DNA of 64,000 bases. It comes from Alphaproteobacteria bacterium (GTDB taxonomy: Bacteria; Pseudomonadota; Alphaproteobacteria; CALKHQ01). Of the stretch, positions 5,799 to 10,623 are shown piece by piece; positions within the stretch are counted from its first letter, which is position 1, and each line of letters starts with the position of its first letter. The position numbers and the translations under genes were made by a program. The stretch is taken from positions 384,001 through 448,000 of the forward strand of contig CBDDFZ010000001.1 of assembly GCA_965227515.1 (NCBI GenBank), written 5' to 3'. The notes under the pieces were generated by a model. The model ran no database searches. It saw only the letters and a list, made by a program, of their open reading frames with translations, and had not been told where the DNA came from.

Positions 5799-8117
5799 TC
5801 AGGCGTGCGCGGCGGGGATGACGAAGCGGGCCAGCACCCGCTTGTCGCCGGCCTTCTCGAAGCTGACCGCCAGCTTGTCGCCCTCCACGGCGGTCACCAG
5901 GCCATAGCCGAACTTCTGGTGGAACACGCGCGCGCCCTCGGCAAAACCGGTGTCCGGCTCGGCGTCTTCGATCACTGTCGCCACGCCCTCGATCTCCGCC
6001 GGCGCAGCGCGCCGCGCCATGCCCGGGCGCTGGCGCATGTGGTCGTAACGCTGACCGGGCGCAGAGGTACGGCCACCGCGCCGCCAGATCGGGCCCCAGT
6101 CGGTCGTCCGCACCCCACCGGCGTCGAACGCCGCGTTGGCCTCGCCGAAACCGGGCACAGCGCCGACCGTCAGGCCGTCGGTGCCGATCTGGCGGGTGTG
6201 GTCGTCCGGCAGCTCGTCGATGAAGCGCGACGGCATCGCGCTCTGCCACAGATTGTTGATCCGCCTGCTGCCGGCATAGGACACGTACGCACGTACACGC
6301 GCACGGGTGAGGCCGACGTACGCCAGCCGGCGCTCTTCCTCCAGCGACTTCAGCCCGCCCTCGTCCAGCGCGCGCTGGTGCGGGAACAATCCTTCCTCCC
6401 AGCCCGGCAGGAACACCGTGTCGAACTCCAGCCCCTTGGCCGAGTGCAAGGTCATCAGGCTGACCATGTCGCCGCCGCTGGCCTCGCCCTGCTCCGCGAC
6501 CAGGCTGACATGCTCCAGGAAGCCCGCCAGCGTGTCGAACTCCTGCATCGCGACGATCAGTTCCTTCAGGTTGTCGAGCCGGCCCGGCGCGTCGGGCGCC
6601 CGGTCGGCCTGCCACATGGCGGTGTAGCCGGATTCGTCCAGCACCAGGGCAGCCAGTTCGTCATGGGCCATGGTCTCGGCCATGGCGCGCCAGCGGTCGA
6701 AGTCCTGCACCACGCCGGCGAACGCCTTGCGCGCCCGCGACGGCAGCTCGTCGGTCTCGACCAGGGCGCGGATGGTGGCCAGCAACGGCTGTTGCAGCTC
6801 GCGCGCGGTCTGGTGCATCTGCGCCAGGCTGGTCTTGCCGATGCCGCGCTTGGGCGTGTTGATGATGCGCTCCAGGGCCAGGTCGTCGTCGGGCTGGGCA
6901 ATCACCCGCAGGTAGGCGAGCGCATCGCGGATCTCCAGCCGCTCATAGAAGCGCGGCCCGCCGATCACGCGATAGGGCAGGCCCAGCGTCAGGAACCGTT
7001 CCTCGAACTCGCGGGTCTGGAAGCTGGCGCGGACCAGGATCGCGATCTCGTTCAGCGCATGGCCGTCGCGCTGCAGCCGCTCGATTTCCTCGCCGATGGT
7101 GCGCGCCTCGTCCGGCCCGTCCCAGGTGCCGCGCACGGTCACCTGCTCGCCGGTGTCCTGCTCGGTCCACAGGGTCTTGCCAAGCCGCCCCTCGTTGTTG
7201 GCGATCACGCCGGCCGCCGCCCCCAGAATGTGGCCGCCGGAACGGTAGTTCTGCTCCAGCCGGATCACCGTGGCGCCGGGGAAATCCTGCTCGAACTTCA
7301 GGATGTTGCCGACCTCGGCGCCGCGCCAGCCATAGATCGACTGGTCGTCGTCGCCGACGCAGCAGATGTTCTTGTGGCCCTGGGCCAGCATGCGCAGCCA
7401 CAGATACTGGCTGACGTTGGTGTCCTGATATTCGTCGACCAGCAGATAGCGGAACCGCTGCTGGTACTCGGCCGCCACGTCGGGGAAATTCTGGAACAGG
7501 GTCAGATTGTGCAGCAGCAGGTCGCCGAAGTCACAGGCGTTCAGGGTCTTCAACCGCTCCTGATAGGCGGCGTAGAGAGCGGTGATCTTGCCCTCGGCGA
7601 TATCGCCAGCCTCGGCCGCGCCGATCCGGTCCGGGGTCAGGCCGCGATCCTTCCAGCGCTGGATCACGCCGTTGATCAGCCGCGCCGGCCAGCGCTTGTC
7701 GTCGATATTCGCGGCCTGGATCAGTTGCTTCAGCAGCCGATGCTGGTCGTCCATATCCAGGATGGTGAAGGTCGGCGTGAGCCCGATCAGGTCGGCGTGG
7801 CGGCGCAGGATGCGCGCGCCCAGCGCGTGGAAGGTGCCGAGCCACCACCCCTCGACCGAGCGGCCGAGCATCGCGCCGACCCGGTCCTTCATCTCCCGCG
7901 CCGCCTTGTTGGTGAAGGTGACGGCCAGGATCTCACCCGGCCGCGCACTGCCGGTGGCCAGGATGTGGACCAGCCGGGTGGTCAGCACCCGGGTCTTGCC
8001 GGTGCCGGCCCCGGCCAGCACCAGCACCGGGCCGTCGACGGCGGCCACAGCGGAGCGCTGCATCTCGTTCAGGCCGGCGAAATAGGGCGGCTGCGGGGCT
8101 GTGAGTTCGGCTGACAT
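5799..8117 (-). CDS. uvrD: UvrD/PcrA-family ATP-dependent DNA helicase
   Basis: AGAGTGKT, TFTNKAA, VDEYQD, GDDDQSIY, LEQNYRS, TLHSAKGLEF, EERRLAYVGLTRA, C-terminal Tudor-like RVFHQKFGYG. Confidence 0.95.
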   Translation of the reverse strand: MSAELTAPQPPYFAGLNEMQRSAVAAVDGPVLVLAGAGTGKTRVLTTRLVHILATGSARPGEILAVTFTNKAAREMKDRVGAMLGRSVEGWWLGTFHALGARILRRHADLIGLTPTFTILDMDDQHRLLKQLIQAANIDDKRWPARLINGVIQRWKDRGLTPDRIGAAEAGDIAEGKITALYAAYQERLKTLNACDFGDLLLHNLTLFQNFPDVAAEYQQRFRYLLVDEYQDTNVSQYLWLRMLAQGHKNICCVGDDDQSIYGWRGAEVGNILKFEQDFPGATVIRLEQNYRSGGHILGAAAGVIANNEGRLGKTLWTEQDTGEQVTVRGTWDGPDEARTIGEEIERLQRDGHALNEIAILVRASFQTREFEERFLTLGLPYRVIGGPRFYERLEIRDALAYLRVIAQPDDDLALERIINTPKRGIGKTSLAQMHQTARELQQPLLATIRALVETDELPSRARKAFAGVVQDFDRWRAMAETMAHDELAALVLDESGYTAMWQADRAPDAPGRLDNLKELIVAMQEFDTLAGFLEHVSLVAEQGEASGGDMVSLMTLHSAKGLEFDTVFLPGWEEGLFPHQRALDEGGLKSLEEERRLAYVGLTRARVRAYVSYAGSRRINNLWQSAMPSRFIDELPDDHTRQIGTDGLTVGAVPGFGEANAAFDAGGVRTTDWGPIWRRGGRTSAPGQRYDHMRQRPGMARRAAPAEIEGVATVIEDAEPDTGFAEGARVFHQKFGYGLVTAVEGDKLAVSFEKAGDKRVLARFVIPAAHA

Positions 8118-8341
8118 CGGCTCCTCGGGAGTCTTGGAACAAACATGCGACTCCGCATCGGTGAGGGCAACACTACCGTGTTTCACCGCCGCACCACACC
8201 ACCTTGTCAGCCTTGACCGAGGCACAAGTAGATGGGCTAACGGCCCTTGTTTGGTGGCGTGCATGAGTGGTCGTCCCTCAAGATGTCGGTGTCATACACG
8301 GAGTCGGGTTTGCCGCTCCAAGACATCGAGGAGAGACGACC

Positions 8342-9385
8342 ATGAACTACTATGCCGGGATTGACGTTTCTTTGGAATGGTCATCGGTGTGCGTTGTTGA
8401 CGGCGCGGGCGGGATTGTCTGCGAGGCTCGTATTGCGAGCACGCCGGCGGGTTTGTTGTTGTGGTTTGGGTCTTTGGGGATTTCGGTTGAGCGGATTGGT
8501 CTTGAGGCGGGGCCGTTGTCGCAATGGCTTGTGCGGGGATGTAGCGAGGGCGGTCTTTCGGTTGAGTTGCTGGAGACGCGTCATGTTGCGCGAGCGCTTT
8601 CGACGATGCCGGTGAAGTCGGACCGCTCGGACGCACGCGGGATTGCTCAGCTGATGCGTGTGGGCTGGTTTCGTCCGGTTCACTGCAAGTCTTTGGCGGC
8701 CCAGGAGATGCGGGCCCTTTTGAAGGGTCGCGACCAGCTCCGCGCGAAGCTGCACGATCTTGAGATGCACCTTCGTGGTCAGCTGCGGAACTTCGGGCTG
8801 AAGGTAGGGCACACCACCAGGCGCAGCTTTTCGACACGTATTTCGGAGCTTGTGGCGGGGCATCCGGTACTGGAGGCGGTGGCGGGGGCGCTGCTGTCGG
8901 CACGCGATGGCCTGTTGCTATCGTTCACGGCGCTGGACCGGCAGGTCCGGGCGGCGGCGCAGGCCGACGATCGCGCTCGCCTGCTGATGACGGTGCCGGG
9001 CGTGGGGAGCATTGTCGGACTGACCTACTTGTCGGGAGTGGACGACCCCGGGCGGTTTGCCTCGTCGCGCCTGGTGGGTGCGCACTTCGGCCTGACGCCG
9101 ACCAAGCGCCAGTCGGGCGAGAGCGAGGTGATGGGGCGGATATCGAAGGTAGGGGACGCCGATGTGCGCTCGGCCCTCTATGAGGCGGCACACGTGGTTC
9201 TGACCCGGCCGATCGAGGGCGGCTGGCTGAAGAGCTGGGCGATGAAGCTGGCCAGGCGTGCGGGCATGAGGAAGGCGAAGGTCGCGCTGGCGCGCCGGCT
9301 CGCCGTGATCATGCACCGGATGTGGGTTGACGGCACACCGTTCAACCATGCCGGACCGGTGCGCCCGGCGATGGCGACAGCATGA
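8342..9385 (+). CDS. IS110-family DEDD transposase/recombinase
   Basis: YAGIDVS, GLEAG, KSDRSDA RuvC-like residues; C-terminal Transposase_20 region with GLTPTKRQSG; GGAG RBS before ATG 8342. Confidence 0.93.
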   Translation: MNYYAGIDVSLEWSSVCVVDGAGGIVCEARIASTPAGLLLWFGSLGISVERIGLEAGPLSQWLVRGCSEGGLSVELLETRHVARALSTMPVKSDRSDARGIAQLMRVGWFRPVHCKSLAAQEMRALLKGRDQLRAKLHDLEMHLRGQLRNFGLKVGHTTRRSFSTRISELVAGHPVLEAVAGALLSARDGLLLSFTALDRQVRAAAQADDRARLLMTVPGVGSIVGLTYLSGVDDPGRFASSRLVGAHFGLTPTKRQSGESEVMGRISKVGDADVRSALYEAAHVVLTRPIEGGWLKSWAMKLARRAGMRKAKVALARRLAVIMHRMWVDGTPFNHAGPVRPAMATA

Positions 9386-9469
9386 TGGCCGCGGCATAAG
9401 GAGAACCGACACACGAGCTTCGACGGGCACCGACACCGGCCCGTCGAGCGCCGTCCCGCGCCGGGACGA

Positions 9470-9605
9470 TGGATCAGGTCAGGCCGCCATCCGGGATGTC
9501 GCCTCGCATGAGAGCACGCTTCCGTAGATTGGACCGACCGATCCTCGCATATCCATCTTGGCGGCGGCCCTGCGCCGACCCCGTACAGAAGCATGACCCA
9601 GGCGC
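9470..9605 (+). ncRNA. Candidate seekRNA/bridge RNA of the IS110-family element (boundaries approximate)
   Basis: Segments matching target (CATCCGGG 9488-9495, CGTAG 9523-9527) and donor junction (CCATCTT 9553-9559, TACAGAAG 9584-9591), each pair flanking a small hairpin. Confidence 0.65.
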
Positions 9606-9649
9606 CGGGACGACGAAAAAGGGATTGACCAACAATGGCCCGTTACAGA

Positions 9650-9704
9650 AGCCTGGGTGAAACGAAGTGGAACCCGGGTTTCGCTACGCTCCACCCGGGC
9701 TACG
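9650..9704. repeat. GTAG-family REP doublet (first GTAG interrupted by the IS110 element)
   Basis: Empty site reconstructs as GTAGCCTGGGTGAAACGAAGTGGAACCCGGG-TTTCGCTACGCTCCACCCGGGCTAC. Confidence 0.8.
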
Positions 9705-9708
9705 TCAA

Positions 9709-10623
9709 TCAGCCCTGCAGCAGCCCGTTCGCCTTCAGGAACGCCGCGAGCTTGGCGTGCTGGGCGTCGGTCAGCGGCCAGCAGGCCGGCGGGCGGGTGG
9801 ACCCGCAATCATTGCCGATCAGCTTCAGCGCCGCCTTCACCCCTGGGACGTTGGCGCCGCCCATCTCCTCGGCGCGGATTTCCTCGAACGCCTTCATGCC
9901 GGCGATCAGCGCGCGCGCTTCGGCGTAGTCGCCCGCCTCCAGCGCGGTGTTGATGGCGACGCTGCGCGCCGGCCACACATTGATCAGCCCGGAGGTGAAG
10001 CCGCGCGCGCCGACGGCATAGAACGCCGGCGCCCAGACCTCGGCCAACCCACCGACCCAGACGATATCGGGGTCCCAGGCGGCGATCGCCTCGGCCAGCT
10101 TCAACGGGTTGGGGGTTGCCCACTTGACCCCGATCACGCCGTCGACCGCGCAAAGGTCGGCGATGGCGCGGGTGCCGATGGCGTCGTTGCGCAGGTAGAG
10201 CATGATCGGCAGGCCGCCGCCGGCATCCGCCACCCGCCGGGTGTAGTCGACCAGCCCGCGCGGCGACACGAACGGGTCCGGCGGCTGGTGGATCATCAGC
10301 GCGTCGGCACCGGCCTCGACCGAGGTGCGCGCGAGCCGGCAGGCATCGCCGATGCTGCGACCGACACCGGCGATCAGCGGTGCCCGGCCGGCCAGATGGG
10401 CCGCTGTCGCGCGCACCATCGCCTCCGCCTCGTCGGTGGTCAGGGAGTAGAACTCGCCGGTGTTGCCGTTGATCACCGGCAGGTGCACGCCGGCCGCCAA
10501 TGCGCGGTCCAGCACCGGTTCCTGCAAGGTCGGCGCGATCAGCCCGTCGCCATCGAATGGCGTCACCAGAATGCCGGACACACCGGTCAAAGCCGCGCGC
10601 AGGCGCGCCGTGTCTTCGCCCAC
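9709..10623 (-). CDS. Dihydrodipicolinate synthase (DapA/NAL) family aldolase/dehydratase
   Basis: VTPF, GNTGEFYSL, MLYLR, GVKWA Schiff-base Lys; GTG start after GGAGG. Confidence 0.85.
   Translation of the reverse strand: MGEDTARLRAALTGVSGILVTPFDGDGLIAPTLQEPVLDRALAAGVHLPVINGNTGEFYSLTTDEAEAMVRATAAHLAGRAPLIAGVGRSIGDACRLARTSVEAGADALMIHQPPDPFVSPRGLVDYTRRVADAGGGLPIMLYLRNDAIGTRAIADLCAVDGVIGVKWATPNPLKLAEAIAAWDPDIVWVGGLAEVWAPAFYAVGARGFTSGLINVWPARSVAINTALEAGDYAEARALIAGMKAFEEIRAEEMGGANVPGVKAALKLIGNDCGSTRPPACWPLTDAQHAKLAAFLKANGLLQG

What the first reader, a model, noticed from the sequence alone, without database searches (positions are those of the whole stretch)
8228..9704. IS1111-type element in a REP GTAG motif with a readable four-guide seekRNA/bridge RNA
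Seen: removing 8232-9651 restores GTAG-CCTGGGTG..., the first arm of a REP doublet, with an AG core at both junctions. The 3' non-coding region carries four segments in order. CATCCGGG (9488-9495) pairs with the target right flank CCTGGGTG using two wobbles. CGTAG (9523-9527) matches the target left side plus core. CCATCTT (9553-9559) is the reverse complement of circle-junction AAGATGG. TACAGAAG (9584-9591) is identical to the element right end 9644-9651. Each pair brackets a small hairpin. Known: IS110/IS1111 recombinases are RNA-guided, and IS1111-type elements have subterminal IRs and a downstream NCR. Inference: a programmable recombinase with an AG core aimed at CGTAG^CCCGGATG-type alphaproteobacterial REPs.
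Basis: partly seen in the sequence, partly recalled or inferred. Interest (0 to 1): 0.78.

Follow-up and report, generated by a model that had tools for sequence, protein, structure and literature searches.

The report
REP-targeting IS1111 element with bridge RNA
This is one of about twenty active copies of a known kind of jumping gene that uses its own small guide RNA to land at one exact spot in a repeated palindrome, so it is a clean natural example rather than a new mechanism.

Summary
Window 8232-9651 is a 1420-bp IS110-family element of the IS1111 group. It is one of 20 full copies plus 1 deleted copy in this genome. All 21 sit at nGTAG|CC[C/T]GG[A/G]TG, with AG at both junctions.

- **Right-target guide (9488-9495):** it covaries with the target inside the genome. 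Thirteen copies carry CATCCGGG, and 9 of them sit in the perfect complement CCCGGATG. Seven copies carry CATCCAGG, and all 7 sit in CCTGG sites (Fisher p 0.0005).
- **Relatives:** the same positions match each element's own flanks in 27 of 31 right flanks, far above non-cognate pairings.
- **Left-donor segment:** its last 7 nt equal the element's last 7 nt in 59 of 59 loci, with three variants.
- **Right-donor segment:** support is weaker.
- **RNA fold:** a closing stem, a target arm and a donor hairpin keep 28 of 35 pairs through compensatory changes.

No RNA data were available, so transcription is inferred from characterised relatives. Bridge/seekRNAs of IS1111 elements, and their targeting of REPs, were published in 2024. 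This is a new member of a known kind, of modest interest.

The parts
8228..8231 (+). GTAG head of the REP (left half of the target). The AG at 8230-8231 is one copy of the core dinucleotide.
   Evidence: all 21 copies are preceded by GTAG. The base before it is C in 16 of 21.
8232..9651 (+). IS1111-group insertion sequence, 1420 bp. The boundaries are ambiguous by the 2-nt AG core.
   Evidence: 20 full-length matches at 89-100% identity, plus one deleted copy; identical ends in all copies.
8232..8237 (+). Left terminal extension ATGGGC, the right half of the donor site in the circle.
8238..8255 (+). Left subterminal inverted repeat TAACGGCCCTTGTTTGGT.
   Evidence: 17 of 19 aligned positions match the reverse complement of 9628-9645.
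8342..9385 (+). Transposase/recombinase gene, 347 aa. It has a DEDD RuvC-like N-terminal domain and a Transposase_20 C-terminal domain. Ser258 lies in GLTPTKRQSG.
   Evidence: PF01548 E 9.5e-13; PF02371 E 2.3e-20. (C-terminus aligns to IS621 and ISCro4 chains); all 20 full copies have open frames.
9449..9465 (+). 5' strand of the closing stem P1 of the bridge/seekRNA.
   Evidence: duplex with 9597-9615, z -3.6. helices 1-2: 10 of 11 pairs have compensatory changes.
9471..9485 (+). 5' strand of the basal stem of the target-binding arm.
   Evidence: helices 3-4: 9 of 12 pairs have compensatory changes.
9487..9495 (+). Right-target guide (C)CATCCGGG, complementary to the top strand of CCCGGATG(G). 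G9493 is A in subfamily B.
9501..9515 (+). Distal hairpin of the target-binding arm.
   Evidence: (helix 5).
9523..9527 (+). Left-target guide CGTAG, identical to the target top strand including core AG 9526-9527, so it would pair with the bottom strand.
9528..9529 (+). AT directly after the guide's core, equal to the first two bases of the element's left end (a handshake-like position).
   Evidence: equal in 65 of 65 loci (AT 62, CT 3). This is one covariation event only.
9531..9544 (+). 3' strand of the basal stem of the target-binding arm.
9553..9559 (+). Candidate right-donor guide CCATCTT, complementary to the last 3 nt of the right end plus the first 4 nt of the left end.
   Evidence: 5-9 nt of complementarity in every relative, with little covariation.
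9560..9580 (+). Hairpin between the two donor segments.
   Evidence: helix 6: 6 of 8 pairs have compensatory changes.
9584..9591 (+). Left-donor guide TACAGAAG, identical to the element's last 8 nt.
   Evidence: the last 7 nt are identical to the right end in 59 of 59 loci, in three variants.
9597..9615 (+). 3' strand of closing stem P1.
9625..9630 (+). TTGACC, a -35-like hexamer. It lies 17 nt from GAAG (9648-9651), which would join AT of the left end in a circle. This is a candidate junction promoter (inference).
   Evidence: TTGAC at this exact spacing in 43 of 59 loci, and shifted by one base in 13 more.
9628..9645 (+). Right subterminal inverted repeat.
9646..9651 (+). Right terminal extension CAGAAG, ending in the second copy of the AG core.
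9652..9704 (+). Rest of the interrupted REP doublet. CCTGGGTG at 9652-9659 is the right half of the target.

Best explanation
Window 8232-9651 is an intact, probably active copy of an IS1111-group (IS110-family) insertion sequence. Its 3' non-coding region, about 9449-9617, encodes a structured bridge/seekRNA that works with the DEDD/serine recombinase.

The RNA folds into three parts:
- a long closing stem;
- a target-binding arm, whose internal loop carries a 5' segment complementary to the top strand right of the insertion point ((C)CATCCGGG) and a 3' segment identical to the top strand left of it plus the core (CGT-AG);
- a donor region, where CCATCTT and TACAGAAG flank a hairpin and match the joined ends of the circular form.

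The element therefore inserts, in one orientation, between GTAG and CCCGGATG at the head of REP palindromes, and exchanges strands at an AG core.

Shown here: the anatomy, the target specificity, guide/target and guide/end covariation, and the conserved RNA fold.

Inferred from published relatives: that the region acts as RNA bound to the transposase, that a circle forms, and that a junction promoter drives expression.
For: Family: Pfam PF01548 + PF02371. The C-terminus aligns to the IS621 and ISCro4 recombinases, with Ser258 at the catalytic-serine motif. Subterminal inverted repeats start at nt 7. The NCR lies downstream of tnp.

Activity: 20 full copies at 89-100% identity, all with open frames.

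Specificity: 21 of 21 copies sit at GTAG|CCYGGRTG in one orientation.

Covariation within the genome:
- Copies 1-13 have G at 9493; their targets have C at position 3 in 11 of 13, and 9 are the perfect complement CCCGGATG.
- Copies 14-20 have A at 9493; their targets have T at position 3 in 7 of 7. Fisher p = 0.00046.
- Against site availability (27 of 135 sites are CCCGGATG), 9 of 13 gives p = 1.7e-4.

Covariation in relatives (transposase 41-69% identical):
- The right-target segment forms at least 7 contiguous Watson-Crick pairs with its own flank in 27 of 31 unique element/flank pairs. The mean is 8.3, against 3.96 in 844 non-cognate pairings.
- The left-target segment matches 3.67 of the 6 nt upstream of the core, against 1.80 (39 pairs against 1460).

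Donor side: the last 7 nt of the left-donor segment equal the element's last 7 nt in 59 of 59 loci, as ACAGAAG, AGAGAAG or AGCGAAG. The ends were located from the inverted repeats, not from the guide.

RNA fold: a covariance model finds one hit per element, always downstream of tnp, with 86 hits in 100 sources. Cells are 91.4% paired and 28 of 35 pairs have compensatory changes. Slid controls give 34-50% paired and 10-14 such pairs.

Selection: in the most diverged copy, tnp is 88.0% identical but the RNA region is 98.3% identical.

Literature: IS1111 transposases co-purify with an RNA from the 3' NCR, in which the top-strand match lies 5' of the bottom-strand match (PMC11187229, sections 8-9). 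Bridge RNAs were predicted in the right end of 93% of IS1111 elements, with donor-binding nucleotides often in a multiloop (PMC11208160, passages).
Against: No direct evidence here that the region is transcribed or bound by the protein.

Four of 31 relatives' right flanks do not match their guide (L025, L032, L076, L081). Several left flanks match by only 0-2 nt from the core (for example L025, L039, L111). Some of these may be chimeric metagenome contigs, but that was not shown.

The left-target guide of this element is short: GT plus the core is invariant, and the preceding C matches in 16 of 21 copies.

The right-donor segment shows little covariation. In three loci whose left end starts CTGGGG it still reads as if the end were ATGGGG.

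For ISEc11 the published short 82-nt seekRNA, said to contain the target-recognition regions, was sufficient for transposition, and the role of the long form is called unresolved (PMC11187229, sections 10 and 14). The donor guides may therefore be dispensable.

Relatives are kin, so the p-values across them are overstated. The pair counts were made on an alignment fitted to the model.
Confidence: 0.85

Rival explanations
1. Only the target-binding half is a guide, as in the short seekRNA. The element's ends are recognised by the protein through the subterminal inverted repeats. CCATCTT and TACAGAAG are conserved for another reason, such as RNA structure, protein binding or processing signals.
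For: In ISEc11 the 82-nt seekRNA, which holds the target-recognition regions, moved a mini-IS more efficiently than the long form, and the role of the long RNA is stated as unknown (PMC11187229, sections 10 and 14). The right-donor segment barely covaries with the left end, and three CTGGGG-ended loci mismatch it.
Against: The left-donor segment tracks the right end through three sequence variants in 59 of 59 loci. In L144 the right-donor segment pairs with 9 contiguous nt across the joined ends. Durrant et al. report donor-complementary nucleotides in a multiloop of IS1111 bridge RNAs (PMC11208160, passage). The whole 170-nt region, not only its 5' half, is conserved at 98% in the diverged copy.
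Confidence: 0.2
2. The guide-like segments act as DNA rather than RNA. Single-stranded element DNA would pair with the REP hairpin, as the subterminal guide sequences of IS200/IS605 elements do.
For: The target is a hairpin-forming REP whose GTAG head is also associated with a Y1 (RAYT-like) transposase in this genome. No RNA evidence was obtained here.
Against: The protein is a DEDD/serine recombinase, not a Y1 HUH enzyme. [quoted passage not shown] The stems keep pairing through G-U intermediates (for example GU 17 and GU 13 at two pairs), which fits RNA rather than DNA.
Confidence: 0.05
3. The transposase protein alone recognises the REP structure, and the NCR matches are incidental REP-like fragments.
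For: CATCCGGG resembles the REP's own 3' arm, (A)ATCCGGG (flanks). Singly, two of the four matches are common in shuffles.
Against: Relatives aimed at unrelated sequences (CCCGCATG, GGCGGATT, GGCGCAAT, CGGACAT, CAACCAA, AAGGTTTG and others) carry the matching complement at the same RNA position. A single-base guide difference tracks target choice within one genome.
Confidence: 0.03

Closest known systems
ISPa11 (IS1111 group, Pseudomonas aeruginosa), with ISEc11, ISKpn4 and ISPst6: the seekRNA elements of Siddiquee et al. 2024
   Same: - DEDD transposase of about 340 aa, subterminal inverted repeats and a long 3' NCR.
- An RNA from the NCR carries a top-strand match 5' of a bottom-strand match.
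- ISPa11 inserts at a fixed position in a REP.
- Natural retargeting between relatives is reported (ISEc11/ISXne4).

Source: PMC11187229, sections 6, 8, 9 and 10.
   Different: - The target sequence and host lineage differ.
- Sequence relatedness to these named elements was not measured, because no sequence of them was at hand.
- RNA binding is shown for them and is inferred here.
- Here two co-resident subfamilies differ by one guide base and use different REP variants.
IS621 bridge RNA/recombinase (IS110 group; Durrant et al. 2024, Hiraizumi et al. 2024)
   Same: - Two-loop logic, with target guides and donor guides around a 2-nt core.
- The serine motif of the C-terminal domain aligns.
- The AG core on the tnp strand reads CT on the other strand, the core named for IS621 (passages).
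- A 2-nt position next to the core in the target loop matches the donor, like the published handshake guides.
   Different: - The RNA lies in the right end, downstream of tnp, not in the left end.
- The order and strand assignment of the target matches is reversed.
- The donor segments lie in a multiloop closed by a long stem, not in a simple internal loop.
- The inverted repeats are long.
- Only the C-terminal 130 aa align by sequence (E 7e-11).
IS1111-group bridge RNA predictions (ISCARN28, ISAzs32, ISPa11) in Durrant et al. 2024, Fig. 6 and Extended Data Fig. 10c
   Same: Right-end location, donor-binding nucleotides in a multiloop, and 8-14 nt base-pairing patterns (PMC11208160, passages).
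   Different: The figures and supplementary tables were not visible to me. I cannot say whether this scaffold or this element is among those already modelled.
ISPpu9 / ISPpu10 of Pseudomonas putida KT2440
   Same: IS110-family elements inserted in REP sequences. ISPpu9 has a small-RNA gene downstream of tnp, and ISPpu10 circles form a hybrid promoter (PMC12288879, abstract only).
   Different: [quoted passage not shown] Here no solo copy of the RNA region exists: 21 matches, all inside the known copies.

Membership tests
IS110 family, IS1111 group | N-terminal DEDD (RuvC-like) transposase domain | tested here: met
   PF01548, E 9.5e-13, residues 5-150.
IS110 family, IS1111 group | C-terminal Transposase_20 domain with the GL-P----S(t)G motif | tested here: met
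   PF02371, E 2.3e-20. GLTPTKRQSG is in the translation. It aligns with GLTPRRYESG of the IS621 chain. The motif definition comes from PMC11187229, section 6.
IS110 family, IS1111 group | Transposase length 330-350 aa | tested here: met
   347 aa from the ATG at 8342.
IS110 family, IS1111 group | Subterminal inverted repeats (7-17 bp) with short terminal extensions | tested here: met
   17 of 19 aligned positions, starting at nt 7 from each end. The same arrangement is seen in relatives.
IS110 family, IS1111 group | The longer non-coding region lies downstream of tnp | tested here: met
   266 nt (9386-9651) against 110 nt (8232-8341).
IS110 family, IS1111 group | Site- and orientation-specific insertion with a shared core dinucleotide and no long duplication | tested here: met
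   21 of 21 copies at GTAG|CCYGGRTG, with AG at both junctions.
IS110 family, IS1111 group | Circular intermediate with a junction promoter | not testable with these tools
   Only an in-silico hint: TTGAC lies 17 nt from GAAG|AT in 43 of 59 loci.
bridge RNA / seekRNA | Two target-matching segments, one per strand, meeting at the insertion point, with the top-strand match on the 5' side in IS1111 elements | tested here: met
   9487-9495 and 9523-9527. The same order is seen in all scaffold matches.
bridge RNA / seekRNA | Guides covary with targets | tested here: met
   Within the genome (Fisher p 0.00046). Across relatives, 27 of 31 right flanks and 39 left flanks score above non-cognate pairings.
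bridge RNA / seekRNA | Donor guide matching the element's right end | tested here: met
   59 of 59 loci, three variants.
bridge RNA / seekRNA | Donor guide matching the element's left end | tested here: inconclusive
   5-9 nt of complementarity everywhere, but the left end is nearly invariant, and three CTGGGG ends are not tracked.
bridge RNA / seekRNA | Conserved secondary structure that places the guides in loops | tested here: met
   91.4% of cells paired, 28 of 35 pairs compensatory, slid controls 34-50%.
bridge RNA / seekRNA | The RNA is transcribed and bound by the transposase | not testable with these tools
REP (RAYT-associated repetitive extragenic palindrome) | Many copies of a short palindrome with a GTAG head, and a Y1 transposase gene flanked by inverted copies | tested here: met
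   114 free and 21 occupied GTAG+CCYGGRTG sites. A Y1_Tnp match (PF01797, 23.9 bits, just over the cut-off) is flanked by inverted GTAG-headed repeats in L154. That a GTAG head is typical of REPs is recalled, not taken from a call.

The most novel reading that the evidence does not exclude
This IS lineage may be a specialised parasite of RAYT-type REP heads. In this genome it appears to have split into two co-resident subfamilies that divide the REP population by a single guide nucleotide (G9493 against A).

In addition, the two nucleotides after the core in the target loop (AU here, CU in a clade whose left end starts CT) may act as an IS621-like handshake guide. That would mean IS1111 elements use the same strand-exchange trick despite the mirrored order of their guides, and that the long, donor-binding form of the RNA is functional rather than a processing precursor.
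Probability: 0.35. Interest if true: 0.5.

Novelty: new member of a known kind. Interest (0 to 1): 0.3.

Why it matters
RNA-guided IS110/IS1111 recombinases are being developed as programmable DNA-insertion tools.

This genome offers a natural, internally controlled example. About 20 intact copies fall into two subfamilies that differ by one guide base, and there are 135 candidate sites in four sequence variants. Guide/target rules, including tolerance of rG·dT and rU·dG wobbles, can be read straight from the occupancy.

The relatives collected here cover about 30 distinct guide/flank pairs and three right-end variants. They bear on a question the seekRNA paper leaves unresolved: whether IS1111 elements use donor guides at all.

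None of this changes the known mechanism.

Tried and rejected
- **Rfam 15:** no match at E up to 1 in 8000-10000.
- **Single-sequence MFE of 9440-9651:** z -0.89, uninformative in this G+C-rich sequence.
- **RNAalifold on MAFFT alignments:** only partial structures. One search proposed a CGGG/CCCG pairing with no compensatory change, which I dropped in favour of stem P1. One search recovered P1 and the donor hairpin but paired guide nucleotides in the target arm.
- **Order-level genome search:** only 3 other genomes are held, and none matched this protein at E 1e-60.
- **RNA evidence:** no RNA holder was listed.
- **Laying contigs of 4 runs:** no joint from 9651 to 8232. One X3 contig (depth 5.3, side 31) joins 9703 back to 8224. 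That is REP next to REP head, not the circle junction, so I draw nothing from it. The parts without cover are not interpreted.
- **Sigma-70 consensus scan of 8100-9800:** 0 promoter-like sites.
- **Donor-side handshake:** I tested whether the base after the left-donor guide matches the first flank base. It does in 20 of 20 own copies and 27 of 39 external loci, but in 0 of 10 loci carrying the CGAG guide extension (the T-arm-like clade plus two others). Not supported as a general rule.
- **tRNA targets for the sister clade:** its guides match GGTTCGA(G/A)TCC-like sequence, but aragorn found 0 tRNA genes in 8 of 8 computationally rejoined sites. Unresolved.
- **L036:** it has the segments in a different order by eye and was left out of the regex tables.
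- **Rows dropped:**
  - The scaffold regex matched 86 of 130 loci (20 of 21 own, 66 of 109 external).
  - Of the 66 external loci, 45 had a usable left flank and 38 a right flank. After removing identical guide/flank pairs, 39 and 31 were scored.
  - The model search used 100 of my sources; L142-L152 were not given to it.
- **Supplementary files of the papers and the figures:** not seen. Durrant et al.'s Supplementary Table 5 and Extended Data Fig. 10c, and the seekRNA paper's supplementary figures, may already cover this scaffold.
- **In-print check:** I did not search the literature for this particular element, which has no name I know. My two searches were for seekRNA+IS1111 and bridge RNA+IS1111+donor-binding loop.
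Full report
**1. What is there**

- GTAG at 8228-8231;
- the element from ATGGGC (8232) to TACAGAAG (9644-9651);
- the flank CCTGGGTG from 9652;
- CATCCGGG at 9488-9495, CGTAG at 9523-9527, CCATCTT at 9553-9559 and TACAGAAG at 9584-9591.

The one long forward ORF (8342-9385, 347 aa from the ATG that follows a GGAGAG ribosome-binding site) carries Pfam DEDD_Tnp_IS110 and Transposase_20. Its C-terminal 130 residues align with the solved IS621 and ISCro4 recombinases. Ser258, in GLTPTKRQSG, lies opposite the serine of GLTPRRYESG. The structural paper names that serine (S241) as the nucleophile (passages).

**2. Boundaries and copies**

The 1420-bp stretch matches end to end at 20 places in the 5.5-Mb genome, at 89-100% identity. 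One further copy has an internal deletion, keeping query positions 1-717 and 1299-1420. All 20 full copies have open transposase frames.

In all 21 copies the left flank ends in GTAG and the right flank starts CC[C/T]GG[A/G]TG. The element is always in the same orientation, and AG is present at both junctions. The base before GTAG is C in 16 of 21. The next base out shows no preference for the RNA's C (4 of 21, counted).

The ends carry subterminal inverted repeats that start at nt 7 from each end, with 17 of 19 aligned positions matching. The longer non-coding region is downstream of tnp. These are the published IS1111-group features (PMC11187229, section 6).

**3. The target is a real REP**

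GTAG+CCYGGRTG occurs uninterrupted 114 times in the genome:

| Variant | Free sites |
|---|---|
| CCCGGGTG | 60 |
| CCTGGGTG | 33 |
| CCCGGATG | 18 |
| CCTGGATG | 3 |

A Y1_Tnp (RAYT-like) gene is flanked by two such repeats in inverted orientation. The match is just above Pfam's cut-off.

**4. Chance**

In 200,000 shuffles of the NCR, the first two segments are common singly: 30% for a wobble-tolerant partner of this copy's flank, and 22% for CGTAG. The last two are rare (0.4% and 0.2%). All four in order never occurred. The strength comes from what follows.

**5. Covariation inside the genome**

Aligning the 3' regions of all copies splits them into two subfamilies.

| Subfamily | Copies | Guide | CCCGGATG | CCCGGGTG | CCTGGGTG | CCTGGATG |
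|---|---|---|---|---|---|---|
| A | 1-13 | CATCCGGG | 9 (perfect complement) | 2 | 2 | 0 |
| B | 14-20 | CATCCAGG | 0 | 0 | 6 | 1 (perfect complement) |

The window copy is one of the two subfamily-A copies in CCTGGGTG.

Guide position 6 (G or A) pairs with target position 3 (C or T). The counts are 11:2 against 0:7 (Fisher p 0.00046). Against availability, where CCCGGATG is 27 of 135 sites, 9 of 13 has p 1.7e-4. T at position 3 in 7 of 7 has p 5e-4.

The off-consensus insertions all need only rU·dG or rG·dT wobbles.

**6. Covariation in relatives**

Scans of genome and metagenome contigs gave 109 loci whose transposases are 41-69% identical to this one. A scaffold pattern found the same series of conserved anchors and variable segments in 66 of them. 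The ends were located from the inverted repeats with a fixed 6-nt offset, independently of the guides.

- **Right-target segment.** It forms at least 7 contiguous Watson-Crick pairs with its own flank (core included) in 27 of 31 unique element/flank pairs. The mean is 8.3, against 3.96 in 844 non-cognate pairings. Only 48 of the 844 reach 7.
- **Examples.** CATGCGGG with CCCGCATG; AATCCGCC with GGCGGATT; ATTGCGCC with GGCGCAAT; AGGTCGGG with CCCGACCT; and, within one clade, ATGTCCG/CGGACAT, TTGTCCG/CGGACAA, ACTTCCG/CGGAAGT and TTGGTTG/CAACCAA.
- **Left-target segment.** It matches 3.67 of the 6 bases upstream of the core, against 1.80. A contiguous run of at least 3 from the core occurs in 23 of 39 cognate pairs, against 59 of 1460 non-cognate.
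- **Misses.** L025, L032, L076 and L081 miss on the right. L076 sits in a site that fits the guide of a sister element, which may be a chimeric contig; this was not shown. Several loci miss on the left.
- **Independence.** The loci are kin, so the p-values are overstated. The many independent base changes are the real evidence.

**7. Donor side**

The last 7 nt of the fourth segment equal the last 7 nt of the element in 59 of 59 loci with a defined right end.

| Variant | Loci |
|---|---|
| ACAGAAG | 30 |
| AGAGAAG | 27 |
| AGCGAAG | 2 |

The third segment is complementary to 5-9 nt across the joined ends in every locus: 7 nt here, and 9 in L144. The left end is nearly invariant, however, and in the three loci that start CTGGGG the segment does not follow. 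Its status as a guide is therefore probable but not shown.

The two bases after the core in the target loop equal the first two bases of the left end in 65 of 65 loci (AT 62, CT 3). This resembles the handshake guides described for IS621, but it rests on one covariation event. The mirror position after the fourth segment matches the flank in only 27 of 39 external loci.

**8. RNA structure**

Duplex predictions in 17 representatives show two stems:
- a long closing stem, here 9449-9465 with 9597-9615;
- the basal stem of the target arm, here 9471-9485 with 9531-9544.

Both have z of -2.0 or lower in 17 of 17, and the sequences differ between clades.

A covariance model built from 14 near relatives with my hand-drawn structure found 86 hits in 100 sources. 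All were on the transposase strand and downstream of tnp, and the window had a single hit at 9450-9617.

On that alignment 91.4% of cells pair and 28 of 35 pairs show changes on both sides. With the partners slid by 1-3 columns, 34-50% pair and 10-14 pairs show such changes. No shuffle out of 500 reached the observed values. The alignment is fitted to the model, which favours the structure. The slid controls argue the signal is real.

The guides lie in the internal loop of the target arm, and on either side of a hairpin in the junction region. This fits the published remark that IS1111 donor-binding nucleotides often sit in a multiloop.

In the most diverged copy, tnp is 88.0% identical, the spacer after the stop codon 77%, and the RNA region 98.3%.

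**9. Expression (inferred)**

No sigma-70-like promoter was found inside the element. A TTGAC hexamer lies 17 nt from the terminal GAAG in 43 of 59 loci, and one base off in 13 more. Joining the ends would therefore place GAAG+AT as a weak -10 element. Junction promoters are described for this family. This is inference only.

**10. Comparison and verdict**

Everything tested fits an IS1111-group element with a bridge/seekRNA. Such RNAs were demonstrated for ISEc11, ISPa11 (a REP-targeting element) and ISKpn4, and predicted for 93% of IS1111 entries.

The element is therefore a new member of a known kind.

What this case adds is a tidy natural experiment, with two co-resident guide variants and four REP variants, and comparative support for donor guides in the IS1111 group.

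I saw these papers as follows:
- PMC11187229: outline and sections 6, 8, 9, 10, 13 and 14.
- PMC11208160 and PMC11208158: searched passages only.
- PMC12288879: abstract and outline.
- Other titles: only as search listings.
- No figures or supplements were seen.

Noticed in passing
L154 (G000:C1:1602408-1605746), Y1_Tnp match at locus 1501-1839: A RAYT-like Y1 transposase gene (PF01797, 23.9 bits) is flanked by two GTAG-headed REPs in inverted orientation, at locus positions 1379 (+) and 2022 (-). This is a REPtron-like arrangement. The IS targets the same GTAG head.
   Followed up: partly
L028, L099-L105, L115, L145 (relatives): A sister clade has right-target guides complementary to GA(C/T)TCGAAC, which is the reverse of a tRNA T-arm-like GGTTCGA(G/A)TC. 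Its left flanks share a motif ...ACTGCNTGGCTGGG.... Aragorn found no tRNA gene in 8 of 8 rejoined sites, so the nature of this target is unresolved.
   Followed up: partly
L030-L033, L038, L040, L106-L139 (relatives): A large clade keeps a nearly constant right-target guide for CGGACAT, one arm of another palindromic repeat (ATGTCCGCTT...AAGCGGACAT). Its left-target guide is highly variable and follows the variable loop of that repeat.
   Followed up: partly
G000:C1:998357-999181 (copy 21; L021/L022): This internally deleted copy keeps element positions 1-717 and 1299-1420. It has lost the 3' part of tnp and the whole target-binding arm, but keeps the donor segments and both ends. It sits in a normal TCGTAG|CCTGGGTG site.
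   Followed up: no
L023, about 2758-2790: The last ~35 nt of the element (inverted repeat and terminal extension) are absent. The RNA region runs directly into CCTGATTA, which resembles the right flank predicted from that element's own guide (CCTGATCT).
   Followed up: no
L075, both junctions: The element carries guides for CCGTAG|CCCGGATGG, the same REP type as in the window. However, 4 extra bases (CTAG) on the left and 3 (AAG) on the right lie between the element ends and those target halves.
   Followed up: no
L091, 1359-1532 and 2013-2193: There are two hits of the bridge-RNA model in one 2.3-kb locus (67 and 60 bits). This may be two adjacent or nested elements.
   Followed up: no
window 9386-9440: The spacer between the tnp stop codon and the conserved RNA is the least conserved part of the element (75-77% identity between subfamilies) and carries insertion/deletion differences between them, including a 9-nt one. 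This marks about 9441 as the 5' limit of the constrained region.
   Followed up: yes
window 5799-8264 (- strand): The longest ORF on the minus strand (821 aa) reads from inside the IS left end. Its real start is presumably further in, so the IS lies close upstream of that gene's start. The gene was not analysed.
   Followed up: no
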